A stretch of DNA of 49,536 bases, filler included, from Jimgerdemannia flammicorona (Eukaryota): assembly GCA_003990765.1 (NCBI GenBank). It is 2 parts of 2 records of this genome, joined end to end, with 100 filler letters (N's around TTAATTAATTAA, not from the genome) between each part and the next. Parts side by side here need not be neighbours in the genome. Positions count along the whole stretch, not along the records: positions 1 to 24,722 come from RBNJ01000936.1; 1 more part is not named here. One strand, 5' to 3'. The position numbers and the translations under genes were made by a program. Below are positions 3,001 to 30,468 of this stretch, one piece after another. The notes below the pieces were generated by a model. That model was given only the letters and a program-made list of their open reading frames with translations. It was not told the origin of the DNA and made no database searches. Each line of letters starts with the position of its first letter. Position 1 is the first letter of the stretch.

Positions 3001-3518
3001 CTCAATGTCTCCACCTCCTTCCATATATCCAGACCTCCACTCCTACCCCCAGCACTCCTCCCTCCATCAGTTCTGTCCAGCCACGGATCCCTAACCATAT
3101 TAAAGTCCCCACCGAGAACATCAACCCCTTCCTCCAAGAGAATACCCTCCTCTAGCAGCCCCCTAATCCAAGTAGTCCTCTCACCCCTAGCTGCAGGGCA
3201 GTAGCAAGAACCCACCTTCACCGATTCCCAACCTGGCTGATGCCAATCACCCCAGACCAAGCGATCACCCCAGCTCCTGACACCCCCCAAGTCTCCACTG
3301 CCCTTCCTCACCAGAATCACCACCTTTCCAAACCAAGCAGTAGCCCTACCCCATTCCCTAGTCCACTCTACCCGATCATCCTCATCCTCACACCAAACAT
3401 CCTGTAGTAAAAAGAGATCAGCCTCCAATCCCTTGAGCCAAGTGAAAATGTTCTTACACCACCCAGAGCCCCTCAGCCCATTCACATTCAAGGAAAAAAT
3501 GTTGGTTATACTGTTCAT
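1..3518 (-). pseudogene. LINE ORF2 (APE endonuclease + reverse transcriptase + zf-RVT), fragmented
   Basis: ORF fragments 2856..3563, 2343..2660, 1644..2252, 1422..1610, 1173..1418 and 798..1154 carry EN and RT motifs in the expected order. Confidence 0.9.
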
Positions 3519-3549
3519 AGAAAATAATAATAAATCATGGTTCCACCCT

Positions 3550-7417: not shown

Positions 7418-7804
7418 CCCAAGGCCAAACCCTCAACCAATGCTTACCAAGAAGATATAGAGTATGACCTCTACAGTCTGGAGGATGAACTCATCAAATC
7501 TGGAAGAACACTGATATTCAGAACTAAACTAGCCATGCAGCCACCTCAAGGAACTTATATCCTACTGATCTCAAGGTCTGGACTTGCCAGACAAGGAGTA
7601 ACTATAAAAGGAGAAACCATAGACTCAGAATATATAGGTGAAATTAAGATCATTCTGCACAACAGTAGTATAGAATGGCACTAAATTCTTAGAGGACAGA
7701 AGATTGCTCAAGCAGTCTTCATGAAAGTCAAGACCCCCCAATTATAAGAAGTCTTCAAACTGACTGAAGGAATAAGGCAAGTTAAAGGATTTGGAAGCTC
7801 AGAC
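7418..7804 (+). pseudogene. dUTPase domain within Gypsy A pol
   Basis: One frame shows all five dUTPase motifs in order: EYDLY, SRSGLA, GETIDSEYIGEIKIIL, KIAQ, RQVKGFGSS. Only two stops, both TAA (7682, 7745). Confidence 0.88.
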
Positions 7805-11214: not shown

Positions 11215-12449
11215 TGTAATGAGCAGCAGAATTGTACTGCCAAAATCATTAATTAGCCACATACAATATCTAGTATACTAAGCAACTAAGACTGCTTTAC
11301 TACACCTATTTGTATAATTAGCCAGAGATATCAGAAATAGTATTTTTATCTGTACCAGTCCCATATACTGTACTCAGTTCACTGTATAAGTCTAGTATAC
11401 TATATTATCCAGGAATACTTGCCATAGATAGCAATCTATAATTAGCCATATAGCAACCAGATAGTAACCACAACTGTATAAAATACCCCAGAGACAAGAG
11501 TGAATAAACCTCAGTCTGAAAAGTTCCAAATAAAAAGACAAGTCTATCTACTATACTTTGAGAGATATGTCTGCTAAAAGCCAATTAATCTAGAAAGGAT
11601 TGCAATACTTAGGAGAAATGCTTGCTCTAAAGCCACTACTAGAAGATTGTGAGCTTTGCTATTTCTACTCCAGTCTACTTTCTGAAAAAAAGAATGAGTC
11701 TATTTTTCAGAAGAAGTCTACTACATTTTTGATTTACTTGCCAGATAAGCCTAAAGAATCTGCATCTTCTGCCATTTTCAAGTTATATACTACCATTCCC
11801 AGAGAGCCTGATCCTTGTCACCAAGTCAGTCTTCTGATACAACTTTGTAATAGAGTCAGTCTATTGATGTAACTCTGTGCAAATGAAGCCAGTCTTTGAT
11901 ATAACTAGCCAGGAATCCACCATCCAAGCTATTTTCCAGAAGCCCACTGATTCAGGAAGAATCTGCATCATCCAAGTTATCTGAGTTATCTGAGTTATCT
12001 GAGTTATCTAAATTATCTGAGTCATTTAAGTTATTAAGTTATCTGATATTCTCAGTAAGCTGCCAATTTAGGAGAATCTGTGCCAAATTGAGTTATCTGC
12101 CAAAATCACATAAGGAAACCACTCACACTATATAGAGATCATCATACAGAAATCACATACTTTTGGAAACAAGATTGTCATGCAGAAATCGCATAAGGAA
12201 CCCATCATGCTATACAGAGATTGCCACCACTCAAGAAGGAAACTACTAAATTGCCAATCACCACTACATCCAGAGAACTTTCCCAATAAGGAAATTGACC
12301 ATTATATCTAGATTAACTATTATACTACTAAACACCAATAAGGAATATTAGAATATTTGATTGCTTTTGATAAAGTAACTGGGGGCTCAAGCCAAACTAT
12401 ATCAATCCCCAACCTTGTAATTTACCTCTATTGAGCTGAGCATATTACA
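11215..12449 (+). repeat. 3' LTR of Gypsy A (~1.24 kb)
   Basis: 6-bp inverted termini TGTAAT/ATTACA; TATA-like GTATAAAAT near 11476; homologous to 12761-14282. Confidence 0.8.
11974..12046. repeat. 9-bp tandem repeat (GAGTTATCT)n inside the LTR
   Basis: Direct inspection. Confidence 0.85.
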
Positions 12450-12760
12450 ATATATATTACTATATTCTTACTAATAGAATTATAAATATATAATAAAGTT
12501 ATAAATTTCTCTAATAATAAAAAGTGTAAATATATAAGCAATAGATAATAAATATAAATTACTTATTAAGAGAGATATTTAGAAACTAATATCTCTATAA
12601 ATATTTCTTTTAATTAATATATATAATATATCTAATATAAATAAGAATAATAATTTATTATTATAGAAATAAAAAAAAAAAGCTAAAAAAATTAAAATAA
12701 CTTTATAAAAATTCAAAATATTTGATCTTAGAGATATATTTTATTTTTTAGGTATATAAT

Positions 12761-14282
12761 TATAATGATGAGCTAGCAGAAATATATACCAAGTTACTAT
12801 CCAAATTAGTCACTATAATTTAGCTATATACTATATCAAGAATACTAGACAATCAGAACTGCCCTATTGTACCAGCTTATATAAATAATCTAGATAGCCA
12901 AAGAAGGAAACATTATGGGACATTTAAGGTCTCCTTGAGACATTGAAGTTCTCCTCAAGATATTGAAGGTCTTCTTGAGATATTGAAGATCTCTCTAAGA
13001 TTATAAAGATTACCTCTCCTTATAAATAGCAATTTATAGTTAGCCACATAGTAATCAGATTGCAATCAATTTGTATAAAATACCCCAGAGATAAGAGTAA
13101 ATAAACCTTAGTTCAAAAAGTTCAAAAGCAAAAGACAAGTCTGCCTACTATACTTCAAGAGATATATCTACTAAGAACTACTTAATCTTAAAGAAAAAGG
13201 ATTATAATACTTAGGAGAAATGCCCACTCTAAAGCCACTACTAGGAGATTGTGAGTTTACTTTCCAATATAGTCCACTTTCCAATACAAAGAAGTCCACT
13301 ATATTTTTAGTTCACTTGTCAGATAAGTCAGAAAAGAAGAGTCCAAAAGATTGAAATATAAATCAAGTAAAAGCCACTAATATTGTAAGCATTAGTTCTC
13401 TTTTCCCCACTCTGGTCTACTTTCTGATATAAAGAACAAGTTCAAGTTCAAGAGTATTAGCCACCCAAGTTCAAGTAAAGAACTTTGCTATCATTTGAAG
13501 AGAAATCTGCTACTTAAGAAATAAGCTGCCATTTTTAAGAAGTTCTTCTTATCATAAAGCCAGTCTACTAGATGTAACTTTGCAGTAAACTTATTCATAC
13601 AAATGAAGTCAGTCTTTGATATAACTTTGCCAAGAAAAGAATTCACACTATTTAAGAAGTCCACCAATTCAGGATGAATCTACATTATCTGCCATTTTCA
13701 AAAAGTCTGCCAGTATTCCAACACAAAGTCAATCGATTCAATATAATATAACAGTGGAGCCAGTCTATGATATAACCCTATATAAACAAAGCCAGTCTTT
13801 GATATAACTTTGCTAAAAATCTATACTATCTGAGTTATTAAGTTATCTGCCATTTGAGTTATCCACCAAAATGAGTTATCTGCCAAGTCATATAAGGAAA
13901 TCTGCTCACAAGATCATTATACTGAAATCACATAAGGAGCTCATTGTACTATATAGAGATCATCCTATATAAGGAATCTACTCTCACTATATAAGATCAT
14001 TATGCCAGAAATTGTATACTTTAAGAGATTATTGCACTATATAAAGATTGTCTGCTATTACTGATTTACATATTACCACTATACCTAAGAACTGTCTCAA
14101 TAAGAAAATCTGCTAGAATTGACCATTATATCTAGATTTAATTATTATACCACTAAATACTAATAAGAATACCTAGAATTATAGAATATTTTGTTACTTT
14201 TTAACAAAGTAACTGAGGGCTCAAGCTAAACTACATCAACTTTCAATCTTGTAATTTATCTCTATTGAGCTAGCATATTATA
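12761..14282 (+). mobile_element. Solo LTR related to the Gypsy A LTR, termini mutated to TATAAT...ATTATA
   Basis: Shares long blocks with 11215-12449 (TGTATAAAATACCCCAGAGA, TACTTAGGAGAAATGC, AAAGTAACTG.GGGCTCAAGC, CTCTATTGAGCT). No internal coding region; no clear TSD. Confidence 0.8.
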
Positions 14283-15340
14283 TTATATATAATTTAAAAT
14301 ACTAGAACAATTTAAAATATTAAAATATAAACTATTACAAATTTATAAATATATTTATAAAACTAAAAATGATTAAAATAATCTCTAAAATAATTAATAT
14401 TTTATACTATTAAAAAATTAACTTAAATTTTATTTTAGAAATCTAACCAGATTTTTTTTATAATTGATAAAGTAATAAAATATTTATTTAATTGTAATTA
14501 TTTTTAATAAATAATAGTTAAATATTTTTTAGATATATTAAAGAAATAATATAGAAATAGATCAAATAATAAAAATATTTAATATATTTTAATTTTTAGA
14601 ACTATATCTCTTTAAATAATTATTGAAATAAAATATAATCTAATTTTTCAAAAGATATTATATTTTTTTAATTTTTATTTTTATTATTATTATTATTTTT
14701 AATTATTAGTTAAAATATTATTCTAATATTGTTTTTATCTAGACTATTATAAATTTTTATGTTTGTAAAATTAATCATTACTATTCTAATATTTTATATA
14801 ACTCTATTAACCTTAATTATAGCTATAATATATCTTAATATACTTTCAAAATAACTCTAAATAGATAACTATATTGTAAAATTATTAGTTATCTAAAGTA
14901 GTAAAAAATACCTATACTCTTAGAGATTAGAAGGTAATTTGTATCTAAATTATAATTCCAAGCAGCAAAGCTATTCATCATTACCTGTCTATATAGTATC
15001 ATATAGTGAGTACTGAGTTCTTCAAATATGTCAGATTATCTTTAAGATATATCTCTTAGATTAACTATAAGTTTGTTATAAACAAGTTCTTATTAGAGTG
15101 TCTTTCCAAGGTCTTATAGTTCTCAAACTTCTTATCTTTAAACTATCTTATTATCTCTTAGATTACTTATGTAGAATTGAGTATAAGTGAACTGAGGGAA
15201 CTGACTTTATTTTGAAGAAAATGAGAGAGATATTTATACAAAATATAATTTAATAGTTGCTAAGATATAAAGCTAAATATAAATTCTAATAACCAAATAA
15301 ATAAGATACTAAAACACAGAAAACATCAGTCATAAGTACA
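14283..15340. other. Extremely AT-rich degenerate sequence (also 12450-12760)
   Basis: Long stretches almost free of C and G, with no ORFs; flanks the solo LTR on both sides. Confidence 0.75.
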
Positions 15341-15589
15341 AATTTGAGTGCCTGTACAAATGGTTGTACAAGTTCAGATACTGATAGATTTCAGTTATAT
15401 AAGAAATGGATGCCAGAAGATTTAGATGTTCAGATAAATAGTTTTACAAAGAACTCAGAGCAGCATGTTCAGGACTCTGGGGGCTTCATCTTTATCACTA
15501 CTAGAGGTCAGGATGTCTTCAAAGGAAATGAGGTCAGTGAACATTTCATCCATTTCATATATATCATACATTTTGCATACTTCACACAT

Positions 15590-18500
15590 ACATATTACCA
15601 ATTAGTGGGATGACATTATTGCCAATGATGTCATCATATTTGGCAATAGTGAGAAGGAGAGCAAGGAGATCTAGGGCTCTCTAATCTATGACATTCTCTT
15701 CTACAAAATAAGAGACAAATGTGGGGTCTTGGGGAGGTCTAATCTGGATACTGGAGCCTTAGAATACTGAGATCAATCCTTACAGAAATTGATCTGGATT
15801 GTTCTGGAGAATGGGATTCCAGAACTCTTCTACCTTATCACTATTAAGAGTGATAGTAGATTGGGCTTCTATAGCCATTATGGCCTCTAGTGCATTTGTA
15901 TGGCAGGCTGACAATTTCTTGAAGTCTGAGACTCTGGTATACTCTAAGTTGGAGATTGACAATAGTGCATATCTGAAGATCTGGTGAATCTTCTTAGCTT
16001 TCCTTATTTCATCTACATCTATGTGAGTGATATCTTGTATCTCTTGGAGACTAGCCTGAGAGAATTTTTAGTAGAGAAAGTTCTCTATTTCATATTTCTG
16101 CTATATTCAGAGACATTCAATAGTGATGGTATTCCTTATTTCTATTTCATAGTGGTAGAGAATAAAGTGATAAGAGTCACCAGTACCCAGGTTGAGGCTA
16201 GAAGTCTTTTTGGTGCAAGTCCTTATGGCTCTTCTGATGTCTTAGAATATCCTTTCTTAGACTTAGAGGTCTTGGTGGTTCCTGGACCTTGAGGTTTGGC
16301 AGATAGCAGACATTTTTTTTATAGTGAGTCTTTGAACTATTTTGGGATTTTGTGAGTCTTGTTTGAGTTGCTGCTGCTGCAGTTCCTTGGTCCTTCTTTT
16401 ATATTCCTTGAGATATCTATCTTATAGTAATGATGACTCATAGTTGATCATTATTGCTCATCATGTAGCCTGGGTGAGTTATGCCATATGATCTTCTTAT
16501 ACTTCATTCTGGTGACTTATAAGGAAAGGCTGTCTTCTGTAATGATGTCACCATTCTGAGATCACTGTTATATCTTCCTTCTAATAAGGATCTTCTCTTG
16601 AACATTCTTATTCATTGGTCCAGTCTGAAAAATTTGCTAATCCTATAATCTCTGGCAGGGAGTCAAAAAGTGGTATTTTAGGCTGACATCTTTCTTATAT
16701 ATTTTGGCATAATAGTGAATGGTCACTCTCTTCATATAGAGCAAGGGCCTAATTCTGATCTTGATCAATCAGATGATGGTTTGAACTCCTCTGGCTTCAA
16801 AAGTCTCATAGAAAAGTAGTTGCTAGTTCTGTATCTCTCAGAGAATAGTCCAGACAGATTGCCTACTGGTCATGAGACATGCTGTTATGATTCATAGTCT
16901 AGAACCTCATGGGTGGTCATTACCTTTTACTTCTCTTATATAGATTTATGGTACTTCTTGAGTCTGTTCCTGTATACTATAGTAGACAGTATAGTCTCTG
17001 AGAGTTTTCTAAGCCAGAAGTTAGTTCCCTTGATATCTTGCATATAGAAGGGTCCTTTCCATTTGAGCTTCAGTTTTTGTAATCATGAGGCTTTTATCAT
17101 ATTTTGATATAGTAGAACCTTTTCTCTAATTTGAATGGATTCTAGGGCCTTATGATTCTTTTCCACATACTTTTGTATTAGTACTTGTAACTTGATGATA
17201 TAATCTTCTGCCTTCTTCCTGATTTGGTATAGTCTCCAGATTTCTGAGTCAATCTATTGCCAAGTTAGGTCTAGATTTGTGGCTGAGGTTCTATCAGAAT
17301 CTTCTTCTCTGAAGAGTAGTTCTCTTGGGGTAAAGTGTGAACTCTGTGACTGTATATCTCAAAAGACAGAGAGGGCAGTTGAGAAGTAGTTATCCCAATT
17401 CTCATATATTTCTGAGATCTTGGCCAGAATGTTCTTGAGGTCTTTCTGTCTGTCCATTTCCTTGAGGGTGATATATAGTAGTCCTAATGTGCTGAATCTT
17501 ATATTTCTGATATATTATCTTATGGAATCTGTTGACAAATTCTGTACTATGGTCTGTAGTGATTTGCCTCAGTATCATGTAGTGGAAGATGATTTCTCAG
17601 TATAGGAAGTCAGCAATAGAGAGAGCATTGGCTTCTTATAATGCTCCTACTTCTATCTATTTGATAAAGAGGTCTACAATAACTATGATATAGCAGTTTC
17701 CTAATAGAGTTACTAGTAGTGGTCCAATGATGTCCATTATGATATAGTAGAAGGGGATAGATTTGATTCTTGATGACTCAGGTACCTGGTCTTGCTGATC
17801 TTATTTCTGCTTTGGTACTTATCATATCCTTTGACAAATTGGTGCAGGTTTTCTTCCATCTTAGGCCACTATATAGTTATTCTTGCCTTGTCATATGTAT
17901 TGATTCCTCTTAGATATCCTTGTTTATATACTTCCTTCATTACTTGATATTTCTTATGTTTAGATATTATAAGCTTTTTCCCTTTTCTGAGTATAATATT
18001 GTTTAGTTTGAATTATTTCCAAGTTTAATTGATAATAGTAATAGTCCTGAGTTTAAGGTGATTGGGCATCTTTTGCTGCTCAAGATAGCTAATTAATCTA
18101 TAGTATAACTCTTTATTCATTTTGGATAGTCTTGATGGGAGTATTTCGGGATATGTTTGAAAGTGCATCAGTATTGACATTAGTTCTTCCTGAGCAGTGT
18201 TTGACAGTACAGTCATACTCTTGCAGTCTGTAGATCCATCTGATATATATTTCTTTGGGATTCGGAGTGTAGAATAGCTAGGTGAGAGCAGAGTGGTCTG
18301 TTTGAATAGTGAAGTACTTCTCAGCTAGATAGTAGTGAAACTTGTCTACTGCCCAGACTACTGATAAGCATAACTTATAGTTCTGTTCTACTTCATAGAT
18401 ACCTCAGCTTATATAAGAGATGACATATTCATATCTATCTTTCTTCTGAGCTAGTATTGCTCCAAGTCCTATAGTATTTATATCTATCTGCAGGATAAAC

Positions 18501-18969
18501 TCTAGGTTCCAATCTGATCTTCTGTAGATGGGTGCTTGGAGCAACCTGGTCTTGAGTTCATTGAAGGTTTCTTGATATTCTTTGGTCCATTTGAATTTGG
18601 TCTCCTTCTTCAGTAGCTTGTAGATAGATACTACAATATTAGAGTATCCTTTGATAAATCTTCTGTAGTAGGAGGCTAGTCAAAGGAAGGCATGGACTTC
18701 TGTAGTTGTTCTTGGTCTTGGGTAGGCTGCAATAGCCTCAATATTCATGGGGTCCATGTGAATTCTAGTCTGGTTGATGATGTATCCTAGGTAGGTGATT
18801 TCTTGAGCTACATACAAACTTATACTTCTTGAGCTTGATGTAGAGGTCATACTCCTTGAGCTTCTTAAGGGCTAGCTGTATATGGTTGACATATTTCCAT
18901 GTAGTGTTGCTGAAGATGATCACATCATCAACATAGATAAAGAGCCATTTTCTGGTAGTATTCTTCATC
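15590..18969 (-). mobile_element. Ty3/Gypsy LTR retrotransposon B (RT C-part, RNase H, integrase, PPT, 3' LTR with internal ORF), decayed; interrupted by LINE copy 2
   Basis: YVDD at 18924-18935, GL.SYYRRFIKGY, RNase H, integrase (MDIIGPL, KWKGPFY), pol end VYRNRLKKYH near 16940. PPT AGAAGGAAGA at 16582-16573, then TATAAC (from TGTAAC). Far LTR end not resolved. Confidence 0.88.
15780..16313 (-). pseudogene. Accessory ORF (ORF-X family) inside the LTR of Gypsy B
   Basis: ATG at 16313 in a single frame: ...ERIF*DIRRAI...KYEIENFLY...ITHIDVDEIRKAKKIHQIFRYALLSISNLEYTRVSDFKKLS. The stops are consistent with C->T or G->A changes. TATAAAAG at 16403-16396. Confidence 0.65.
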
Positions 18970-21900
18970 ACAATTCACATTACACCAACTTCAAGCAATG
19001 GTTTTTGACACAACTCAGAGAAATGATACTACAAAAATATCATCAAGCAAGAGTTCTGACAGGCATGCTGGGTCAGGTGGACCTGGGGCTTTTGGCTGAT
19101 ATGTAGAATGTGGGGAGGGGTTATGGCCTAGGGATGGGGGCCTTTGGAGGGTTGAAGGATAGAGAGGGCTCTGGAGGTGGACCAGTGTCCAGTGGTGATG
19201 GGAGAAGGCCTGGCCCTCTAAGCTTTGTAGACAAGGTGAAGGAGAGTGGGTGGCTGGCTGGGTCTAGGGCTGGTGCTGCTGAGGGGAAGAACAAGGTGAG
19301 CCTTGGGAGGGGGGGAGATACTCAGGTGGGGGGTGGGAGCATAGGGGCTGGAGGTGCTATAGCTGGAGGTGGGACTGCTGATGGAAGTATGATGGGGAAT
19401 TAGGAAACAAAAAGAGATGTGACAGCTGCTAGCAAAGTGGGGCAGGGATTCCTAATTCAGAAGGGGGACCTGGCTGATGGTGTAATGGGGCTGGTAGTGG
19501 AACCATTACTCAGGAAATCGATCTTAGAGTTTGTGGTGACACTGAGCTTCTGGGGCTTAGCAGTGACAGTAAGGATGGTTCTGGGAATTATCTTGAAGCA
19601 GGTGGCTGAGACCACCTTGGTGAAGTTCCTAAAGGGTCTGAAAGGGATTGAGGTGGGCTTTGAGGATGCAGGTCTGCTGGAGGAAGTATTGAAGACTGGA
19701 GTGGCAGTAGAAGAAGTAGTGGTCCCTATGGTGAAGTGTTTGAGATGGGACCCCAGGGTAGTACAGCTGCTGGTAAAGAGGGTGCCTATAGTGATGACAG
19801 CAGAGACTAGGAGGAGGTGATGGCAGAGTATGGTGACATGGTCAATATTGGGTTCCAGATGTAGGAGGGGACTACTTTCAGAACTGGGGATATTGATGTC
19901 AGGATTAGGCTGGCTGAGAGGGAGGCCACAGAGAAGACAAGTGACTGGTCATTGGTGATGTTGTGGAGAGCCTTCATTTGCAAGGTGTTGAGGGTGAAAA
20001 GGAGTGAGGAGGAGGAGGAGGATCTGTTGGAAGCTCTAGAGGAGATGAGTGGAGCAGTAGAGTGGAGGGCAAAGGCTTGAAGGAGGTATGTGGAGTTGAT
20101 ACATTTGGAGATTGTAGAGGGGAAATATATCTGCATAAACAAGAGGTAGTGGGAGAGGGTCCAGGGGCACAAGAGGCAGAGAGAGCTATTGGTGAGTATG
20201 AAAGAAGAGGTAAAGAAGACTGCAAGTAGGACTGTGGAATCTGAGAGCACTGAAGCTATTGTCTGGACTAGCAAAGGGGGAGGGAATGTGGAGGAGAATC
20301 AGGAGGGAACTAGGAGGATACTGAGTAAGGACCCCTATACAGATGGTATGTTTGAAGTCTGGGAGCAGGATTTGGGGGACACTCACCCTCTTATCAGAAG
20401 GGGCCCAGCTGGAAAAAGAAGAGTGGCAGAGGATGTGCAGATGCAGGGTGCCCAGCAGATATACTTTGGAGTCCCTGACATAGCAAAAGGGGGACAGGTG
20501 GTGGCAGTTAGTGAGAACAAGTTGGTAAATATTCCAGAGGAGGAGTGGGATGAGTTGGCAAGTACTGGAGCTAATACTACAATGTTGGATGCTGGAAGGC
20601 CAGTGATGCCAGAAAGAAAGGAGGTGGGGAACCTACTGTGGATGCACTGTATGATGAATGACTTTGCAGCTGAGGAGCTGGGTGAAGTGGACCTGAGTGT
20701 GGTTCCTGAGGAGCATTGGGCCCAGATCCTACATGGGGATGGAGTAGTGGTGGCTCTAATAGGAGAGATGCTAGCAATTCTTCTGAAGGAGGAGGGGTAT
20801 GAGATTGATAAGGAGAGGGAGGCTGAGCTGGCTGTTGTGGCTGGGGAGCAGGCTGCCTACTGTTGGACAGAGCAGCATGGTCTGAAGCTCTGGCAGGAGG
20901 CCTGTCTGGAATATCATGAGGAATTTGAGGAGAAGGAGGATGGAGTGATGGCTGAACTTCTAGTAGGACTGGAGGTGAAGGAGGCTGCAGAGGAGGAATT
21001 GGCTGCAGAACATGCCTTGAATTTGATGCAGGAAGAGAGGAATGTAGATTTGTAGAATATATACTAGATCTTTCTTCTATACATTATTCCCAATAAATAG
21101 TACAACTAACATTTTTTCTATGAATGTGAATGGGTTAAGGGGATCTGGAAGGTGAAAGAATATTTTTACTTGGCTTAAGGGATTAGAGGCTGATCTCTTT
21201 CTGCTGCAGGATGTGTGCTGTAAGGATGAGAATGATCAGATGGAATGGACTAGAGAATGGGGAGGGGCTACAGCATAGATTGGCAAGGTGGCAATTTTGA
21301 CACAAGGTGGTAAAGGAGACCTAGGTGGAATCAGAAACTGGAGTGACTGTCTGGTATGGGGGGAATGACATCCATCTGAGTGGGAGCCAGTGAAAGTTGG
21401 CTCTTGCTACTGCCCAGCAGCTAGGGGTGAGAGGATTATATGAGTCAAGGGTCTGTTAGAAGAGGGTGCACTCTTGGAGGAAGGTATGGATGTTCTGAGA
21501 GGGGACTTCAATATGGTGTGGAATCCTCATTTAGATCAAATGGATAGAGGGAGAAATGCAGGTGGGAGGAGTGGTGGCCTAAATGCATGGGAGGAGATGG
21601 AGACCCTCAGCTCATTAGAGGATATGGGCAGAGCATAGTGGGGGGATAGGAGGATCTATACACACTGGGTGAATGGACTTGGTACATGGATTGACTGGAT
21701 CCTGACATCTGAATACTGGAGACTGAATGTTTGGAAGTTACTGGAGGTAGAGTATTGCTCATGGTCTGATCACTGGGGCATTTTGGGGCAGGGGTAGTTT
21801 GGGGGGAGTGGAGATAGACCCAGACATTAGCATCTTAACTCCTCTCTGCTAGCAGAGAAAGTTTGGTGGGACCCTTGGGTGGAGGACATCCAGACAGAGA

Positions 21901-24722
21901 TTGCTGACTGGAAATGTGAGGGTTTGCTGGTTGGTGTCCAATGGTTGAAGTTGAAAGAGACTGTAAGGGTTTATTGAGGAGGGGCTGGCAGAGAGGTAGG
22001 GAAGCAGAGAAGAAAAAGGGTGTGGTGTGCTCTCAACCAGTTGTTTAGATTGCAGATAGAATGGGCTGATTTATTAAACTCTGATGAGGTCATTGATTGG
22101 AGGTTGGTATGGACAAAATTGGAGATGACAGAGCTATAACAGGTGTTGAGAGAGGAGGAGGAGATGCATATGAGAGGAATGGTAGCTAGACTGCGGTGGC
22201 AGAGACTTGAGGAGGGGGAGAGGCCTACTAGGTACTTGTCATTACTTCTTTAGGCTAGGAGGATATAGCATTGTTGGGATAGGGTCCTGGATGCAGATGG
22301 AGAAATGGTACATGGTATGCATCAGATCTTGGGAGTACTGAAGGAGCAGTTGTGAGGTCTGTAGAGTGAGGAGAAAGGAGGGATTGATGAGGAGGCAATT
22401 GGTGACATACTTGAGGATTGGAAACCACTACTGGTAGAGGGCCTGGATGATTTGATCCTACCAGTCTAAGAGGAGGAGATTCAGAGAGTCCTTACTGAAA
22501 CCAAGCTTGGGATGGTACTAGGTGAGGATGGGTTACCTTGGGACTTTTGAAAGAAGATGGTGAAGGTGCCTGGGGTTTTAGGGGAGATGGCCACTCTCTT
22601 GACCATGTTCTTCTGAATGGCAAGTAGATTGGCAAGCAGGACTTGGGGTTGGTGGCCTTGTTGTACAAAGATAAGGAGAGGAGGGAAGACTAGAAGAACT
22701 GGAGACCAATTATACTTCTGGATATGGACAGGAAGATGGTGACCAAGGTGATCATGGTGAGGTTACAGAGGATTGCCCAACAGGTGCTGGGTGAGGAGCA
22801 GTGGGGCTTTGTTGGAGGCCAGCTTATTTGAGATGGTACAGCCTGGGTCTATGGCATCATTGAAGAAGCATGGGCCTGTGTATTGGATGGCAGACTGGTC
22901 TTCTTAGACCAGGAGAAGGCCTATGACTACATTCAGCAGATATGGCTAGGCAAGGTGCTGGATAGAATTGATGTTCCACTATATTTTTGGGGTTCTGTGT
23001 TGAGTTTATTAGAGGGTAGTTGAGCAGCACTATTGTGTAATAGATACCAGGGTCTGGTATTTCTCTTGGAGAGAGGAGTTCCTCAGAGGGACCTACTGTC
23101 CCCTATCCTTTATGCCCTCTTATTAGAGCTTTGATAGATAGGATATGATGGAAGGTAGCAGGGCTCTCTGTGTATAGTGTGGTGTGGAAGGTGGGGGGGG
23201 CCTTTGCAGATGATATGGTAGTTGGTCTTAGCTCAGTGGCTGATGTTGCAGTACTTTAGAAGACAGTGGAATGGTATGAGGTACATTCTGGGGTGAAACT
23301 CAACTGGTATAAGTGTGAGACAATGGTACTGGGGAACAGGCTGGTGGGTGGGGACATCATTGGAACAATTGTCCCTATAGGGGAGGTAGTGAGGTATTTG
23401 GGCATCTTCCTTTATATGTATGGTTCTGTCCTACTACAAGAGTGGTGGAAAAGGAGAGTGGCCATTTGAGGGGAGATGCTTAGGGGCTGGGGAGGTCACC
23501 ACATCTCCCTAGCTAGCTGGGTGTTGATTCTGAATATCTACTGGTTCCCTAAGCTATGGTATATTGCTTATCACTTGGATTTTCCAGCTTGGGTGGTGAA
23601 GAGACTGATGAAGCTGGCTAGAGACTGGATTTGGACAGGGAAGTGGGCCCAGATTGGTTGGGACACCCTAGCTATGCCAGTGGTTCAGGGAGGGCTAGGT
23701 CTAGTGGACCTTCCTAAGAGGCTGCACTGCTTACAAGCATGGTGGTTGAAAAGAGCTATTGAGTTACAGGGGAGGGGATGGATGCTGCTGATGTAGAAGG
23801 TGTGAGAGATGAGTTCTCCCCATAGAGATCCTCAGAAGATTTGCTATCTCTGGTAGGGCTGGATAGTAGCTGCTGGCTATAGTATAAGAGTTTCTGGTGG
23901 AGAGTGGTAGATGGAGCACACCACATAGGCCTCCACTGGCATAACAATGAGAGGGAGATGTTGTGGGGTCCAGCTATGTAGCAGTGGGACAGATTGCTTC
24001 TGGGGGGTGTTCTGCTTACTGAGTTTAATATTAGACATGGTGTCAAGTATCATCAGGGTCTTGGTCAGGATCTTTGGTCAAGTGGGTGGCAGGTGGTGGG
24101 GATTGGAGAGGAGTGGGACTGGGCAGGAGTCTGGTCATGGAGTGCTGTGGTGCAGAAATGGCTTCCTCCCAAGTTCTGAGTGGTCTAGTAGCAGATGCTG
24201 CAAAGGAATATCATGTTGAATTTCTGTGCTGGACATCTGGTGGATGGTGGCCATTATGATTGTAAGGAGTGTTACAATGTCAGACAAGATGGGGGTTATA
24301 TATAGACACCAGAATATTGTTTGGGGTAGTGTGAGGTTTTGGGGGACTTTTGGATAGCCATAGGTGACAGGCTGGGTGTGGCAAAGAGGTTGGATGGTGA
24401 GAGGGGTCACTGAGAGGATTTGAAAGCTAGGTTGGTGGGTGTGGGCAATGGGTGGCTCACTGTAGAGTGGGTTTTAGCAGTATAGGTAGGGCTGGCAGAA
24501 CATTGGCTCTTTGTTTTTGAGGAGGAGTAACAGATGGGAATGCAGGAGAAGTTATTGAGATGAGAGGGGTTGATGAGTGATCTGCTGACTAGATGGTGGA
24601 TTAGTTGGGGTCCCCAGGGTGGGTGACATCACTATCTGGTGGAAGGGATATGTGAACAAAGTAGTGGGCAGGTAGTGATGGTTAATGACAAAGTGGTCTT
24701 TCATTGGGAGGGGGTGGAGGGG
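18970..24722 (+). mobile_element. L1/Tx1-clade LINE copy 2, 5'-complete, decayed; 3' end lost in the gap
   Basis: Colinear with copy 1 (ORF1 18998-21055; ORF2 from ~21093 with EN and RT motifs). Inserted in the RT of Gypsy B. Confidence 0.93.
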
Positions 24723-24822
24723 NNNNNNNNNNNNNNNNNNNNNNNNNNNNNNNNNNNNNNNNNNNNTTAATTAATTAANNNNNNNNNNNNNNNNNNNNNN
24801 NNNNNNNNNNNNNNNNNNNNNN
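24723..24822. other. Assembly gap / artificial linker N44-TTAATTAATTAA-N44
   Basis: Exactly 100 bp with a six-frame stop linker in the middle. Confidence 0.97.
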
Positions 24823-26852
24823 TTTTAAAATAAATCTTCCATCATCCGAAACAGTTGCTTCAGCCGACTGAAGAAAAAAAGGATGCATACTACAGCAAAC
24901 TCCAGCGCGCGCTGGATCATTACAAATGTTGAGTTCCAACATGTACAGATGTCCAATATAAGCTCTTTCGGGGCTAAACTGATTGCCCTACACTGCACAG
25001 CGAATTTGTCTCGTTATTGTGGGGACGATCGGACTGACACAACCAGTTTGCGCAGCTTGGAAATTATACTCAGGGCCCCTCCTCTCTCGGATATTTTGTC
25101 TATGTGCGTAAGATAGTCCTGAACAGCGAGGTTCAGTACGTGGGCCTGGCATCGCATATGGCAGCTTTCTGCACTGAAGGCCACATTTTCCTGTTTGAGG
25201 CTGGCCGCTAAACCTTAGAAAAATGTTGAGTTGTTTGTGGCATTGTCTGTTGTAATGGCCAAAATCTGTACTTGAAATATTTGGTTGACAAGTTTATGTG
25301 AAAATAAGTAACCAATAAAATCTGGTTTGGTTTAGGACCTCCCTCAAAACGCTGACCTGACGGCAAGCTCCCCTTTTTTACCTTAGTAGTGATCCCAAAC
25401 TCCTGGATATAACTAATAAAAGCATCTGCGATATTGTCTCCAGAATGAGGGCCAGCAAGTTTGACGAAGTCAAGGGTGAGAGATTTAAGCTACCAATTGA
25501 GGTCAATCCAATGACCGGTAATGCCCAGAAATGAAATTGCATTGGGGGATATCCATGTGTCAATCGTAAACGAAATTTTGCCTGCCGAATTCTGCTTATT
25601 GAATGTGAGGTTAAATTGGTGAGCTCTTTTGTATAATTCAGCTTGCAAAGGTCATGGTGCTGCCCTTATTTTACCTGAAGTATCTGGCAGAGATTGTCGT
25701 ACTCCTTCCTATAGGCCTCCAGGACATCTTTGCAAATAGTAACGGCACTTGGCAAATATAAATCATGCTTGAGGAGGCCAAAGATGCTATGCAATTGATC
25801 ACTCTCGATGGTTGTGAATGGCTGGTCTGTGCACATAATCTAGCAAATGAGCCGATTTCGAAATTCTGCCAAAGAGTATGGCTAAAATTTTTGATTAAAT
25901 GGCGTTGTTGGTACAGAAATGGTCAGGCAAATCAGATAAACGTACCCACCACAGCTTGGATGTCGATTTTATTTGTCTCCATATTCTTTTTGATTTTGTC
26001 AGAGTGCTTGTCTTTTATGTGTCGATTCATATTCGAAGTCATACTCCCAAGCATTTTGAACTTCTGGCTGGTGCAGTTCCTGGGGGTGGATGAAACAATA
26101 TCATGTGTGTGTCAAACAATATCATGTGTATATCAAACAAAGTGTCAATAGGTGCGTCTTAATTTTTTACCTGCAATAATTACAAACAACATCATCTCCT
26201 ATCTTAGTACAATGTTGCCAGATTTCGGAGTGAGGATTGCATGGAAGGTGTGGAACTATCAGGGATGTTTGACTTGAAGCATCATCGGTACTGTGAACTG
26301 TTGAAGACTGATCTGTCGACATGTGTATTTGCATGTTTGCGTATGCATGTGTATGCGTGTGTGTGTATGCATGTGTGTGTGTTGTGTTGTGGACGCATCC
26401 GGCATGTGAGTCATGTGGAGGATTTGGATTGGAGGATTCGGTTGAAGGATTTGGATGAGGATTCGGATTGAAGGATTCGAATTGGAGGATTCAAATTGGA
26501 GGATTCGAATTGGAGGATTCGAATTGAGTGATTCGGATTGAGTGATTCAGATTGAGTAATTCGGATTGAGTAATTTGGATTGAGTGGTTCGGATTGGAGT
26601 GGTTCAGATGGGTGATTCGGATGGGTGATTCGGATGGGGCAATTTGGATGGGGCGATTCGGATTGAGTGATTCGGATTGAGTGATTCGGATTGGGGTAGT
26701 TCGGATGGGTGATTCGGATGGGGCAATTCGGATGGGGTAATTCGGATTAAATCCGAGTTGATCCGGATGGCTTCGGATTTGAGATTCGAATCAAACCGTC
26801 ATGTGATGAATCGAATCCGGATTTGATTCGAATTGACTCGTTCGGAGCACTA
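24823..26852 (-). mobile_element. hAT (Ac-like) DNA transposon, 5' part, copy 2 (less decayed), with intron-containing transposase pseudogene
   Basis: Minus-strand exons give a BED-like segment (TSNMNRHIKDKH), DQPFTTIES, FTIDTWISPN, ILAITTDNATNN, RCQAHVLNLAVQ and CWNSTFVMIQRAL, separated by GT..AG introns. Terminus TAGTGCTCCGAACGAG at 26852; inserted in the RNase H of Gypsy C. Confidence 0.92.
26420..26840. repeat. hAT subterminal tandem array, ~14-bp unit GATTCGGATTGAGT / GATTCGGATGGG
   Basis: More than 20 direct units adjacent to the transposon terminus. Confidence 0.92.
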
Positions 26853-29083
26853 CTCTGATCAAATGGTGACCATACCTAGAAGGAGCACACTTCACTATAT
26901 TGACTGACCACAAGTCATTAGTCAACATCAAGACACAGGCTACCCTTTCCCGAAAGCAAGCCAGATGGATGAAAGTCCTCACCAACTTTGACTACGAAAT
27001 CCAGTACTGCCCTGGTAAGGAAAATATTGTTGCTGATGCAATCTTCAGACCCCCAATTGAAGAAGTTATTCAAACTCTGACCTTGGTCACCAACAGTATC
27101 ATGGAACAAATCATCACAGCATGTGTCGATGATAAAGAAGCTCAAGTACTTCGAGAAATCCTGAACAGTGATGATGCTGACAAGTATACCCGGTACAACC
27201 AATACCAACTCAAGAACAATGCTATCTACTACAAGGACAGACTGTATGTTCCAAATAACCGAGACCTCCAAAGGACTATCCTATTTGAATGTCATGATGC
27301 ATCTATAGCTGGACATTTAGAATTTGATAAATGTTATAAAGTTATCTCCTGAAACTTCTATTGGCCCCACATGGCAGATCAGCTCAAAATCTACATTACT
27401 TCCTGTGATACCTGCCAATGAAACAAGTCCTCAACACTAGCAAAACCCAGCTTACTCCACCCTATCCCAGTATTATCTGCAAATTGAGAACAAATCTCTA
27501 TGGACTTTATTGTACAACTACCCCAAACCAAGAATGGAAAAAATGCAATTGTTGTCTTTATGGACTACCTCAGCAAATAAGCCCACTTTGTGCCTACTAC
27601 ATACTACTACTGCAACAGCACCAGACATAGCCACACTCTTGTTTGACAACATCTTCTGCTATCATGGTCTCCCTAAGATCATTGTTAGTGACCAGGATCC
27701 AAAATTCACTAGCCATTTTTGGAAAGCCCTCCATGCACACCTTGGAACAAAACTTGCACTATCCACAGCCTTTTACCCAGAAACTGATGGCCAAACTGAA
27801 AGAATGAACCGAACTCTGGAACAAATACTAAGAAACTATATTTCCTACAGATAAGATGACTGATACATATGAACACCTCACTGTAGTCGAGTTTGCCTAT
27901 AATAATAGCAAGCAAGCCTCTCTCGGAATGACCCCATTCTTTGCCAACACTGGACAAAACCCAAACACCCCTTTGACACTTATCCGAACCACTGAAGAAC
28001 CCTCTACAGTTAAAGCTGTTGAAGAATTCTTACTCTGAATGTATAATTTAAGCCAGATTGCCATCAAGAATTTATTGCGAGCTCAAGAACAACAATCACA
28101 GTATGTTAACCAATACCGCCAAGAAGAAACTTTTGATATTGGAGAAAAAGTCCTACTAGACATCAGAGGATACCGAGTTGACAACCTCAAGCACAGATCA
28201 TCTACAAAGCTAAACAGCAAGTTCATTGGACCATTTGAAGTCATTGCATAAGTCTCCCCAACCTCCTACAAACTAGTGCTACCAGATACCATTAAGATTC
28301 ACTCAGTCTTTAATGTCTAACGTCTCAAGCAATACAATGACAATGATGACAAGCTATTTCCAAACCAGACTACCAAACCACCTGCACCTGTCATTATTAA
28401 TGACCAAGAAGAGTATGAAGTTGAACAAATCCTCAACAAATGTGGCAACAAGAACCATCCTGAGTACCTTGTCAAATGGAAAGATTACTCGATCCATGAT
28501 GCAATCTGGGAACCCAAGACCAATCTTCAGAATGCTACCAACCTAGTTCAGGAATATGATTCCTTGAACAACTAGAACCAAATACTCTGCACCTATCTAT
28601 ACATACTATATATTACCCTCCTGAACATTATAACTATCATGAACCAAATCAAGAACTCAGCAAAACAAGACAAGAATACCGACTCTCTGGAAAAATAGCA
28701 AAACTGAAAGCAAGCCTATTCTCTCTGTACCACTGGTGGGAAATAAGGCATAGATATTTAAGAAGATTCCTTAGAGGAAATTCTCCAGCAGTAAATGACG
28801 TCAGAATCACTTCTAACACATGGCATTGAACATATGACCCTTTAACATGTAAATCCAATGCGTTAGGCAACTATACTACAAGCATGCTACTTTCTGAGAA
28901 AAATGGACTTTACTGAACTTTTAATCTTCCAAATGGTATAACAATACTAGAACAAAATTAGAAGGCTCTGATGAGGATGTCGAAAGCTAAGAAGGGGAGA
29001 GTTGTAAGCACACAACCTCCAAGCCACTGAAATTACATGTGATCTCTGAACAAATCTGAAAATCACCTGCTTGATTACAAAGC

Positions 29084-29189
29084 TGAGTCAAACCGAAGTC
29101 ACAGTACACAAAGCTGAGTCAATATGAAGTCACGGAATACAAGATTTACACAAATAGAATCTTACCAATCAGGACTAAATGCATATATA
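29084..29189 (+). promoter_or_regulatory. LTR promoter: two TGAGTCA (Gcn4/AP-1-type) sites, CCAAT, TATATA
   Basis: TGAGTCA at 29084 and 29115 within a ~31-bp direct repeat; CCAAT at 29165; TATATA at 29184. Confidence 0.55.
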
Positions 29190-29258
29190 CCGAGCACCGA
29201 GATGCGTCGAATCAGAGAACCAAAATAAACAACAACTACAACTTCCAAACACACAAAT

Positions 29259-30023
29259 ATGACCACTAAGATCTACAACCGTATCCATGCTGATATTTGG
29301 AATGCCATTGTCAACCGAGCCACACCCCCTCTGCCCCTTATGAATATCCATAGTCTAGCACCCCTCTACTTTGTGGAAGCCCGATGGAATGCTCTGAACA
29401 TGCTTAGTGAGGCCCACCGAATCGGACAAATCTCAAGCTACTATCAGATCGGCCGCCTCCTGGAAGACATGGTTGAACACTACCATAATACAAACATTAC
29501 CCAGATGTCTCAACACTAGAAGCTCATTGCCCGCAAATATTGAGAACTCTTCTATAAGTATAGCATCATTATTCCCTGCCTCCGAGTTACCACCAGTGAA
29601 ATGGTTACTATCCTATCCTATGGCCAAATTGACGATATGATACAAGAACTCAACCACAAGTACCTTGAGTATGTTGAAACTATAGACAGAACCTTCCTAC
29701 ACTCCAATGATCACATCTTGCAAATGCTCCAAGTTGGATATGCCATGAAGAATATCTACAATATAATCCACTTCAATGAAGATGAAGTAGAAGATAATGA
29801 TCCCTCTGATACTGACATGACCTCTAGCCAAGGATCTCTGCCAACCCTGATCACTCTGCCAACCTTGCCAATGAACTTACAACAGTTCATAACAGCATAT
29901 GAGACTTATTGGGACAATGACCACTGGTACAAATACCAACCTGCATTCACCCCTGATTACTTCAACTACAATGAAGAGACTGGAGAACACAACCTGTACC
30001 TCCAGACAATCCTCGAGACTTGA
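29259..30023 (+). pseudogene. Accessory ORF (ORF-X family, 254 codons) inside the LTR of Gypsy C
   Basis: ORFs 29259..29519 and 29601..30023 share one frame, broken only by TAG 29517 and TGA 29541 (each one C->T from CAG or CGA). AATAAA near 30105. Confidence 0.75.
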
Positions 30024-30468
30024 ACACACAAGAACAATTCTGAATACTTCTCCACAATATCTCTTTACACAACTACTCTTAGTATAGCAATATCATGAAT
30101 AGCAAATAAACCTATTCAATAACCCACAAACCACTCTTAAGTAAACCCACTCCCTGTTAGGTCCCACTCCTAACCCTGTCATGAAATTTCCTAATTGGGT
30201 ATTGTCTGCAGCGATACACCAGTTCAACTAAGCTGGTCTTAGTTTCTTGAACTTCCTGAAATATGAAAAATCCAGAATATCCAGAACTAGTCCGAAAAAG
30301 GACTTTGGTTGAGACGTCAACCCAATCTTGAAATCAATAAGCATAGAGGATGTACTCCATATGAAATTGATCTTGACCATAAGAAAACGGTCTTCCAGAA
30401 TATCCAGAACCTCCAGAAAACCCTTCCAGAACTATGTAATGGTTACCCTAAAAAGCAACCCTCTTACA

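What the first reader, a model, noticed from the sequence alone, without database searches (positions are those of the whole stretch)
15780..16582. Second, different Gypsy element has a homologous ORF at nearly the same LTR position
Seen on the minus strand: PPT 16582-16573, LTR start 16572, perfect ATGAGTCAT (16441-16433), TATAAAAG (16403), and ATG 16313, which is 259 nt from the LTR start versus 256 nt in element C. The proteins align by eye: RIF*DIRRAI vs RIHADIWNAI, and YEI(E/G)NFL vs YQIGRLL. An ungapped block IT-x9-A[KR]K-x4-F-x6-I-x2-L-x2-T-x7-LS is shared (ITHIDVDEIRKAKKIHQIFRYALLSISNLEYTRVSDFKKLS vs ITQMSQH*KLIARKY*ELFYKYSIIIPCLRVTTSEMVTILS). Element B shows no chromodomain after its integrase while C has one, and I see no DNA similarity between the LTRs. 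Inference: the gene and its LTR placement are old and selected, or were swapped as a module between lineages.
Basis: partly seen in the sequence, partly recalled or inferred. Interest (0 to 1): 0.82.

Follow-up and report, generated by a model that had tools for sequence, protein, structure and literature searches.

The report
Decayed gene inside a Gypsy LTR
A dead copy of a jumping gene carries, just after its polymerase gene, the wreck of a real protein gene of unknown function. A second, distantly related jumping gene nearby carries a possibly related gene at the same spot, inside its terminal repeat.

Summary
The ORF is real. Read through its stops, element B's ORF (ATG 16313, stop 15457-15455, one frameshift) matches five proteins from metagenomes at 63-68% identity. 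The longest of them has 271 residues and the same first Met. Element C's ORF (ATG 29259) has two relatives.

For C, the position inside an LTR is supported. The LTR runs 29003-30468 and has TGTAAG/CTTACA ends. Contigs from other runs break off at 29003 and 30466. For B, the LTR start at 16572 rests only on analogy.

BLASTP gives E 0.49, Smith-Waterman z is -0.01, and the 41-residue block is matched by 271 of 300 shuffles. With profiles of intact relatives, however, hhalign picks the same register over 107 columns at P about 0.01, and 1 of 214 shuffles reaches that score. A weak, collinear C-terminal motif adds a little.

Homology is therefore plausible, at about 55%, but not shown. Neither family has a known domain or a confident fold. 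Both window copies are dead, and selection is not shown. No search in print turned up a sense ORF inside the LTR of an LTR retrotransposon. The nearest analogue is the MMTV LTR ORF.

The parts
16930..18980 (-). Element B pol remnant: the C-terminal part of RT, then RNase H, the integrase zinc domain and the integrase core. It is truncated at the 5' side next to a LINE-like element and is full of stops and frameshifts. The ends given are approximate.
   Evidence: Pfam on three read-through frames: RVT_1 E 4e-06, RT_RNaseH E 1.2e-21, Integrase_H2C2 E 4.5e-04, rve E 4.7e-04. No Chromo hit.
16573..16582 (-). Polypurine run AGAAGGAAGA, the putative PPT of B.
   Evidence: Sequence. A purine run of 10 or more followed within 3 nt by T[GA]TAA[CG] occurs 3 times in the window on both strands; two of the three are the B and C sites. 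This pattern was chosen after the fact.
15455..16572 (-). Putative 3' LTR of B, from the inferred start (TATAAC...) to the ORF's stop. The true LTR end lies somewhere between 15455 and 14833 and was not found.
   Evidence: By analogy with C only. 0 CpG against 39.8 expected. No second copy in the window.
16396..16441 (-). Promoter-like motifs: ATGAGTCAT (16441-16433) and TATAAAAG (16403-16396).
   Evidence: Sequence. The TGAGTCA count in the window is at the chance level. Function is inferred, not shown.
15455..16313 (-). Decayed ORF of B, a member of a family of about 271 aa. The frame runs from ATG 16313 to about 15534. After one frameshift the conserved C-terminus lies at 15586-15458. The stop TGA is at 15457-15455.
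   Evidence: Relatives P0002-P0006 at 63-68% identity. Alignment. Family HMM on the six-frame translation: 422 bits plus a second piece, E 7e-06. Nine stops lie before the frameshift: eight fall where relatives have Q, W or R, and one where the only relative has S.
26853..28640 (+). Element C pol remnant: the RNase H end, the integrase zinc domain and core, the Tf2-type SH3 domain and the chromodomain. It is cut at the 5' side by a hAT-like fragment. The end given is approximate.
   Evidence: Pfam: Integrase_H2C2 E 1.3e-17, SH3_Tf2-1 E 3.9e-16, Chromo E 8.5e-14.
28989..29001 (+). Polypurine run AAGAAGGGGAGAG, the PPT of C.
   Evidence: Sequence.
29003..30468 (+). 3' LTR of C, with terminal inverted repeat TGTAAG...CTTACA. 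Compared with other copies it carries an internal deletion at about 30016-30018.
   Evidence: a contig in run X3 fits from exactly 29003 with 174 unlike letters before it. There are loose ends at 29003 and at 30466. Summed contig depth rises at the bin starting 28988 and falls at 30476 in 4 of 4 runs. Another X3 contig joins 28868-29008 to 29073-29205. Termini.
29259..30023 (+). ORF of C: 254 codons with 2 internal stops (29517, 29541), ending at TGA 30021. Relatives run at least 110 residues further.
   Evidence: P0007 is 86% identical over residues 1-128 and has the same Met. P0001 is 61% identical over 115-253 and continues beyond. The two internal stops fall where P0007 has Q and R.
29084..29189 (+). 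Promoter-like motifs in C's LTR: two TGAGTCA sites (29084, 29115) and TATATA (29184).
   Evidence: Function is inferred.

Best explanation
Element B is an old, 5'-truncated Ty3/Gypsy element on the minus strand, heavily changed by C-to-T and G-to-A transitions.

About 350 nt after its integrase lie a polypurine tract and then, most likely, its 3' LTR. Inside that LTR, 259 nt from its start and downstream of an AP-1/GCN4-like site and a TATA box, sits the wreck of a discrete protein gene of about 271 codons. The gene has its own start and stop and is not part of gag or pol.

Element C is a chromodomain-bearing Gypsy of a distant lineage. It has the same layout: a different, longer protein gene starts 256 nt into an LTR whose two ends are verified.

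The two proteins probably descend from one fast-evolving accessory gene that was already in the LTR of a common ancestor. This is the weakest step.

Inferred mechanism: each LTR carries promoter, ORF and a poly(A)-type signal (AATAAA at 15211 in B and 30105 in C). So the ORF is the first reading frame of any LTR-started transcript, and it can be expressed from either LTR.

The relatives of B have a helix-rich N-terminal half that begins with a basic, arginine-rich stretch. Both families have an acidic, hydrophobic tail. My guess is a nuclear helper of the element's own expression, acting in transcription or RNA export. That function is a guess only.

Shown: the gene is real, its limits, the decay of both copies, and C's LTR limits. 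Inferred: B's LTR limits, the homology, the way of expression and the function.
For: The gene is real.
- B's read-through ORF finds 5 proteins at 63-68% identity, E 1.5e-90 to 5.4e-30.
- P0002 (271 aa) starts at the same Met. Four of the five relatives end at the same ...LL, as does B in a shifted frame.
- Of B's 9 in-frame stops, 8 fall where relatives have Q, W or R.
- C's ORF has P0007 (86%, same Met) and P0001 (61%) as relatives.

C's ORF lies in an LTR.
- Termini are TGTAAG at 29003 and CTTACA at 30463-30468, with a PPT directly before the start.
- Loose ends lie at 29003 and 30466, and a contig fits from exactly 29003.
- Summed contig depth steps up and then down at these places in 4 of 4 runs.
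- A contig bridges the junction between the post-pol region and the LTR.

The layout is the same in both elements: 259 against 256 nt from LTR start to ATG, and a shared PPT plus T[GA]TAA[CG] signature.

Homology.
- Only 1 of 106 and 0 of 108 column shuffles reach the observed score.
- Smith-Waterman on intact proteins: P0003-P0007 is matched by 5 of 500 shuffles, and P0002-P0007 by 18 of 500 in the same register.
- A collinear C-terminal motif appears as BLASTP E 0.11, as the second hhalign hit at P 0.22, and in the B profile against P0001, where 94 of 2000 shuffles do as well.
- Pol identity is only about 30%, so 19% in an accessory gene is compatible with common descent.
Against: - The two window ORFs show no significant pairwise similarity.
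- hhalign's own probability is 3.6-4.8%. Reversed controls score 18 against the observed 24-26, so part of the score may be generic helix-to-helix likeness.
- With HMMER, 55 of 2000 shuffles of P0007 score as well as the real protein, so P is only about 0.03.
- Of the ten Smith-Waterman pairs, five have 5% or more of shuffles scoring as high: 93, 35, 36 and 54 of 500, plus 172 and 156 of 500 for the two weakest.
- C's N-terminal half is represented only by the window copy and one 86% relative, so the C profile is thin.
- B's LTR start reads TA, not TG. Its LTR end was not found, and no other copy of it could be fetched.
- Both AlphaFold models are unusable, with mean pLDDT 34.8 and 33.5, so there is no fold evidence.
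- The last 370 nt of C's LTR have 2.5-3 times the summed contig depth of the ORF part in X1, and far more in X3. C's own copy has lost the ORF's end. Many LTR copies may therefore do without the gene, which speaks against strong selection.
- The element of the third Gypsy lineage, A, shows no such ORF.
Confidence: 0.55

Rival explanations
1. The two ORFs are unrelated. Each lineage gained or invented its own extra gene, and both sit about 256-259 nt into the LTR only because that is where the first ORF after an LTR promoter must start. The weak profile match would be likeness between two helix-rich proteins with acidic tails.
For: - Pairwise tests are at chance.
- hhalign probability is 3.6-4.8%, and reversed controls reach 18 of the observed 24-26.
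- HMMER's empirical P is 0.03 and 0.05.
- There is no DNA similarity.
- Neither family has any other relative or domain that could link them.
Against: - Two separate regions, N-terminal and C-terminal, match in the same order.
- The profile alignment spans 107 columns and begins near the N-terminus of both.
- 1 of 214 shuffles reaches the score.
- ORFs inside LTRs are rare, so two independent gains at the same spot in one genome would be a coincidence. This rests on my knowledge and on searches, which found none in retrotransposons.
Confidence: 0.3
2. In B the ORF is not in the LTR. The purine run at 16582 is not the working PPT, and the ORF is a third internal gene between pol and a shorter LTR that lies further downstream or was lost.
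For: - B's supposed LTR starts TA, not TG.
- No LTR end and no second LTR copy were found.
- Purine runs of 10 or more are common: 150 in the window on both strands.
Against: - In C, the element with the same layout, the boundary directly after the purine run is supported by contig breaks and terminal inverted repeats.
- TA in place of TG fits the G-to-A decay seen all over B.
- The promoter-like motifs lie between the purine run and the ATG.
Confidence: 0.12
3. The ORF is the gag gene of a second element copy joined in tandem through a shared short LTR, or a gag that starts inside the LTR as in yeast Ty1.
For: The 250-260 nt from LTR start to ATG is a typical distance to a gag start. The C-family protein is gag-sized, at 361 residues or more.
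Against: - Neither the two window ORFs nor any of their seven relatives has a Retrotrans_gag or zinc-knuckle hit.
- The B family has a fixed stop after about 271 residues in 4 of 5 relatives and in B.
- C's ORF lies between verified LTR ends, and the DNA after 30468 is a LINE-like flank, not pol.
- No TGG-type primer binding site precedes either ATG (read by eye).
Confidence: 0.03

Closest known systems
LTR ORF (sag, superantigen gene) of mouse mammary tumor virus
   Same: It is a complete protein gene, distinct from gag, pol and env, carried in the sense strand of a long (>1 kb) LTR and so present in both LTRs of the provirus. I saw the search listing and the abstract of PMC2118998. The rest is recalled.
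   Different: - It belongs to a vertebrate retrovirus, not a Ty3/Gypsy retrotransposon.
- As I recall, sag lies in U3 upstream of the LTR promoter. Here the ORF lies downstream of the TATA-like box.
- There is no sequence likeness: no Pfam family of any kind was hit above threshold.
brtn, the additional gene of Boty/BcGypsy1 retrotransposons of Botrytis cinerea
   Same: It is an extra ORF of unknown function carried by a fungal Gypsy element. I saw a passage in 10.1101/2021.04.13.439636.
   Different: As I recall (no call shows it), brtn is antisense and is not described as lying in the LTR.
CERV protein of the C. elegans Gypsy-type element Cer1, and Rev- or Tas-type regulators of complex retroviruses
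   Same: These are accessory proteins of retroelements that act in the nucleus on the element's own RNA or promoter. For CERV I saw the abstract in the listing of PMC10309623. The B family's basic N-terminus and both families' acidic, hydrophobic tails would suit such a role (inference).
   Different: This is a resemblance in possible function only, and it is untested. Those genes are not reported inside an LTR, apart from overlaps with U3 in foamy viruses, which I recall. No sequence similarity was found.
Chromoviruses and Tf2-like Ty3/Gypsy elements
   Same: C has RNase H, integrase, the Tf2-type SH3 domain and a chromodomain. B has RT, RNase H and integrase in the same order.
   Different: As far as I recall, known members have short non-coding LTRs. 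Here the LTR is 1.47 kb, longer in copies without the deletion, and holds a gene.

Membership tests
Ty3/Gypsy LTR retrotransposon (element B) | pol domains in the order RT, RNase H, integrase | tested here: met
   RVT_1, RT_RNaseH, Integrase_H2C2 and rve hits in that order on the minus strand.
Ty3/Gypsy LTR retrotransposon (element B) | two direct long terminal repeats with TG...CA ends and a target-site duplication | tested here: inconclusive
   The element is cut in RT, so only one end is present. There is no other copy in the window. The inferred start reads TATAAC. No matching end was found.
Ty3/Gypsy LTR retrotransposon (element B) | polypurine tract directly before the 3' LTR | tested here: met
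   AGAAGGAAGA at 16582-16573. However, such runs are common: 150 in the window.
Chromovirus | chromodomain at the end of integrase | tested here: not met
   B has no Chromo hit in 3 frames at E<=0.01, though decay could hide one. C has Chromo at E 8.5e-14, so C meets this feature.
Gene carried inside an LTR (as the MMTV LTR ORF) | the whole ORF lies between the two ends of the LTR | tested here: inconclusive
   Met for C: the LTR is 29003-30468 and the ORF is 29259-30023, though the ORF's original end is deleted in this copy. For B the LTR limits are inferred only.
Gene carried inside an LTR (as the MMTV LTR ORF) | sequence relation to the MMTV superantigen | tested here: not met
   No Pfam family above threshold for either window ORF or for the 7 relatives.
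Retroelement Gag | capsid-type domain (Pfam Retrotrans_gag or the like) and/or a CCHC zinc knuckle | tested here: not met
   No such hit at E<=10 for the window ORFs or at E<=0.1 for P0001-P0007. No PDB sequence match below E 0.18. The fold could not be tested, as pLDDT is about 34.
One protein family shared by B and C | significant profile-profile alignment over most of a domain | tested here: inconclusive
   hhalign P 0.008-0.012 and probability 3.6-4.8% over 107 columns. Shuffles reaching the score: 1 of 106 and 0 of 108. Reversed controls score 18. HMMER shuffles: 55 and 94 of 2000.

The most novel reading that the evidence does not exclude
An old accessory gene lives inside the LTR of several distant Ty3/Gypsy lineages. 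It lies downstream of the LTR promoter and upstream of a poly(A)-type signal. Every LTR, solo LTRs included, would then be a complete small gene. Its fast-evolving product would be a nuclear helper of the element, a Rev-, Tas- or Tat-like regulator or a blocker of host silencing. This would be the first gene family found resident in the LTRs of LTR retrotransposons.
Probability: 0.3. Interest if true: 0.8.

Novelty: new variant of a known kind. Interest (0 to 1): 0.58.

Why it matters
LTRs of retrotransposons are treated as non-coding control regions. LTR finders and annotation pipelines do not look for genes in them.

Two things would follow if distinct Gypsy lineages carry a conserved protein gene inside the LTR. 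First, solo LTRs, which far outnumber whole elements, could still express a protein. Second, retrotransposons would have accessory regulators of the kind so far tied to complex retroviruses.

The two protein families have no domain, no fold and almost no relatives among billions of proteins, so they are also new proteins to characterise.

The claim that would matter most is common descent of the two genes. That claim is only weakly supported here.

Tried and rejected
- The window's own genome is not held, so no other copies of B or C could be collected.
- Two six-frame Pfam scans of the whole window failed because too much would have been printed. I used shorter references instead.
- The search for related loci found nothing for either family in metagenome contigs or in viral contigs.
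- A megablast of C against phage records was pointless and empty.
- HMMER over 1.84 billion representatives, using the C-family alignment, returned only P0001. The profile covered only P0001's 247 columns, so C's N-terminal half was not searched that way.
- Sequencing runs: no RNA holder is listed. X3 is only guessed to be RNA, so nothing can be said on expression.
- Read laying could be used once. I then laid C only, so B's boundary was not tested.
- AlphaFold2 gave mean pLDDT 34.8 for the B family and 33.5 for the C family. No fold search was run on such models. The predicted helices are collinear under the hhalign register, but I give that no weight.
- ESM Atlas gave no relative. P0002's best score was 0.83. 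P0007's was 0.93, with recognition below the bar. The two neighbour lists share three clusters of mixed kinds, which is a lead only.
- A Parvo_NS1 hit of the decayed B ORF (E 8e-4, below the cut-off) was not seen in any of 5 intact relatives, so it is chance. A DUF5338 hit of C is likewise below the cut-off.
- PDB sequence searches found nothing below E 0.18.
- A search for an inverted copy of each LTR start, allowing 1-2 mismatches, missed C's true end and found nothing for B. C's end was then read directly.
- One script timed out, one timed out on hhalign, and one parsed the wrong column, so its result is void. They were redone.
- Literature searches for an ORF inside an LTR of a retrotransposon gave only MMTV papers and unrelated uses of the words. 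The two papers I checked were not relevant.
Full report
**Setting.** The window is a nest of decayed transposable elements from a eukaryote. No genome is held for it. Three Gypsy-type fragments are present.
- Element A lies on the plus strand from 7416. It has dUTPase, RT and RNase H.
- Element B lies on the minus strand, from about 18980 down. It has the end of RT, RNase H and integrase, and no chromodomain.
- Element C lies on the plus strand from 26853. It has the end of RNase H, integrase, a Tf2-type SH3 domain and a chromodomain at E 8.5e-14.
- B and C pol remnants share about 30% identity over 132 aligned residues, so they are distant lineages.
- All three elements lack their 5' parts.

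**The observation.** Every coordinate in the finding is right.
- The purine run is at 16582-16573.
- ATGAGTCAT is at 16441-16433, and TATAAAAG starts at 16403.
- The ATG is at 16313, which is 259 nt after 16572.
- In C, the ATG at 29259 is 256 nt after 29003.
- The two 3' regions share no DNA similarity.

Taken as they stand, though, the protein matches seen by eye are at chance level.
- BLASTP of the two read-through ORFs gives a best E of 0.49, in another register.
- Smith-Waterman gives z -0.01.
- The 41-residue block scores 14 with 10 identities. That score is reached by 271 of 300 shuffles and the identity count by 106 of 300.
- TGAGTCA is no more frequent in the window than expected, at 11 against 9.3.

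**The ORF of B is a real gene, now dead.** Read through its stops, it finds five proteins from metagenome collections at 63-68% identity, with E values from 1.5e-90 to 5.4e-30.
- P0002 has 271 residues and starts at the same Met.
- Four of the five relatives end at the same two leucines. The fifth, P0006, has a divergent end.
- B carries that same end in a shifted frame, at 15586-15458, with the stop at 15457-15455. So the gene runs from 16313 to 15455, beyond the finding's end at 15780.
- Of the nine in-frame stops before the frameshift, eight fall where relatives have Q, W or R, and one where the only relative has S.
- The region has 0 CpG against 39.8 expected.
- This is the pattern of C-to-T and G-to-A decay.
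- A fixed start and a fixed stop show a discrete protein, not the start of gag.
- Neither the window ORFs nor the seven relatives hit any Pfam family above threshold.

**The ORF of C is real too, and lies inside an LTR.**
- P0007 is 86% identical over residues 1-128 and has the same Met.
- P0001 is 61% identical over residues 115-253 and continues for 110 residues more.

I laid contigs of four public runs on 27500-31200. They gave the following.
- One contig fits from exactly 29003, with 174 unlike letters before it.
- There are loose ends at 29003 and at 30466.
- One contig joins the post-pol region (28868-29008) to 29073-29205.
- Summed contig depth rises at the bin starting 28988 and falls at 30476 in 4 of 4 runs. 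In X1 it goes from 222 to 865 and from 2386 to 244. The tool warns that contig depth is a poor measure, so I lean on the breaks rather than on depth.

The sequence itself agrees. The LTR starts TGTAAG at 29003, directly after a 13-nt purine run, and ends CTTACA at 30463-30468. After that comes LINE-like DNA (repeats D8 and D9).

Loose ends at 30016-30018 show that other copies run on there. Read by hand, they continue in frame with a peptide like P0001's (EPTTPPPEY against EQPTTPLSEY). So the window's C copy has lost the ORF's end through an internal deletion.

**B's LTR.** Nothing here tests it directly. Three things speak for the boundary at 16572.
- The layout is the same as in C.
- The signature of a purine run followed by T[GA]TAA[CG] occurs three times in the window, and two of the three are these sites (the pattern was chosen after the fact).
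- TA in place of TG is what G-to-A decay would give.

The LTR end lies somewhere between 15455 and 14833.

**Are the two genes related?** With profiles of the relatives the picture changes somewhat.
B 19-128 aligns to C 6-113 over 107 columns at 19% identity, with P 0.012, 0.0092 and 0.0083 for three versions of the alignments.
- Only 1 of 106 shuffles of C's columns, and 0 of 108 shuffles of B's, reach the observed score of 23.8. The shuffle mean is about 14 with sd about 2.5.
- Against this, hhalign's own probability is 3.6-4.8%, and reversed profiles score 18. Part of the signal may therefore be generic helix likeness.
- Smith-Waterman on intact proteins gave, for the B-family proteins against P0007, 18, 5, 36, 20 and 156 of 500 shuffles as good as the real pair. 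Against P0001 it gave 24, 93, 35, 172 and 54 of 500.
- A second, collinear match joins the most conserved motif of the B family (P-T-F-V-x-Y-F-V-E-E-N-V-I-D) to the end of P0001. It scores BLASTP E 0.11 and hhalign P 0.22.
- With the B profile in HMMER, 55 of 2000 shuffles of P0007 and 94 of 2000 shuffles of P0001 score as well as the real proteins.
- Together this amounts to P of roughly 0.01. It is suggestive, not decisive. Adding the shared and unusual position, I put homology at about 55%.

**What it may do.** Structure prediction failed for both families, with pLDDT about 34. PDB and Atlas searches gave nothing usable.

The B family has a basic, arginine-rich start, about 170 residues predicted as helices, and an acidic tail with hydrophobic residues. 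The C family has a helical N-terminal half and a long acidic, aromatic tail.

In both LTRs the ATG follows AP-1/GCN4-like sites and a TATA-like box, and an AATAAA follows the stop, at 15211 and 30105. The likeliest reading is an accessory gene that is the first frame of any LTR-started transcript. It could be expressed from either LTR, and it would act in the nucleus on the element's own expression. All of that is inference.

The last 370 nt of C's LTR carry 2.5-3 times the summed contig depth of the ORF part in X1 and far more in X3. Together with the deletion in C's copy, this hints that many LTR copies lack the gene.

**Comparison and novelty.** The nearest known case is the LTR ORF (superantigen gene) of mouse mammary tumor virus (listing and abstract). 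Extra genes in fungal Gypsy elements are known, such as brtn of Botrytis (passage). So are nuclear accessory proteins, such as Cer1 CERV (abstract). None of these is described as a sense gene inside the LTR of a retrotransposon.

Three full-text searches found no such report. That is a statement about those searches only.

I rate the finding a new variant of a known kind. The strongest new fact is the real, conserved gene inside a verified Gypsy LTR (element C), with a likely second case in B. The weakest link is the common descent of the two.

Noticed in passing
window 7436-7801 (+): Gypsy element A encodes a dUTPase domain (Pfam E 1e-22) upstream of its RT. This element shows no hit to either LTR-ORF family profile.
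   Followed up: partly
window 5670-7415 and 24972-26852: Two copies, 86-92% alike, of a fragment that looked like a hAT transposase when I read the translations by eye. Both copies end at the same position, directly against a truncated Gypsy element: A in one case and C in the other. How two different elements came to abut the same end is unexplained.
   Followed up: no
window 1-5600 (-) and 19000-24700 (+): Two LINE-like elements in opposite orientation with extreme GC skew, about -0.4 and up to +0.47. The RT motifs were seen by eye in the translations. A third LINE-like piece flanks C from 30469.
   Followed up: no
window 11424-14832: A tandem duplication. 11424-12457 and 13022-14290 are about 76-80% alike, and each is followed by an AT-rich palindromic stretch (12505-12764 and 14279-14832). 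GC falls to 25% here.
   Followed up: no
window 30104-30475 (+): The last 370 nt of C's LTR carry 2.5-3 times the summed contig depth of the ORF part in run X1. In X3 the figure is up to 1256 against 4-18. Either LTR variants without the ORF exist, or another repeat family shares this LTR end.
   Followed up: no
window 27500-31200: Where contigs of other runs differ from the window, the changes are mostly T>C, A>G, C>T and G>A. In X1, for example, these make up 162, 101, 116 and 68 of 492 listed places. This is a transition-dominated decay. B's LTR has no CpG left.
   Followed up: partly
window 7132-7330 and 26441-26750; 38076-38267: Short tandem arrays: a 14-nt period inside both hAT-like copies, and an 18-nt period (ACAGCAGGAGGA-type) further on.
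   Followed up: no
window 24723-24766 and 24779-24822: Two runs of N, which are assembly gaps, lie between the LINE-like element and the second hAT-like copy.
   Followed up: no
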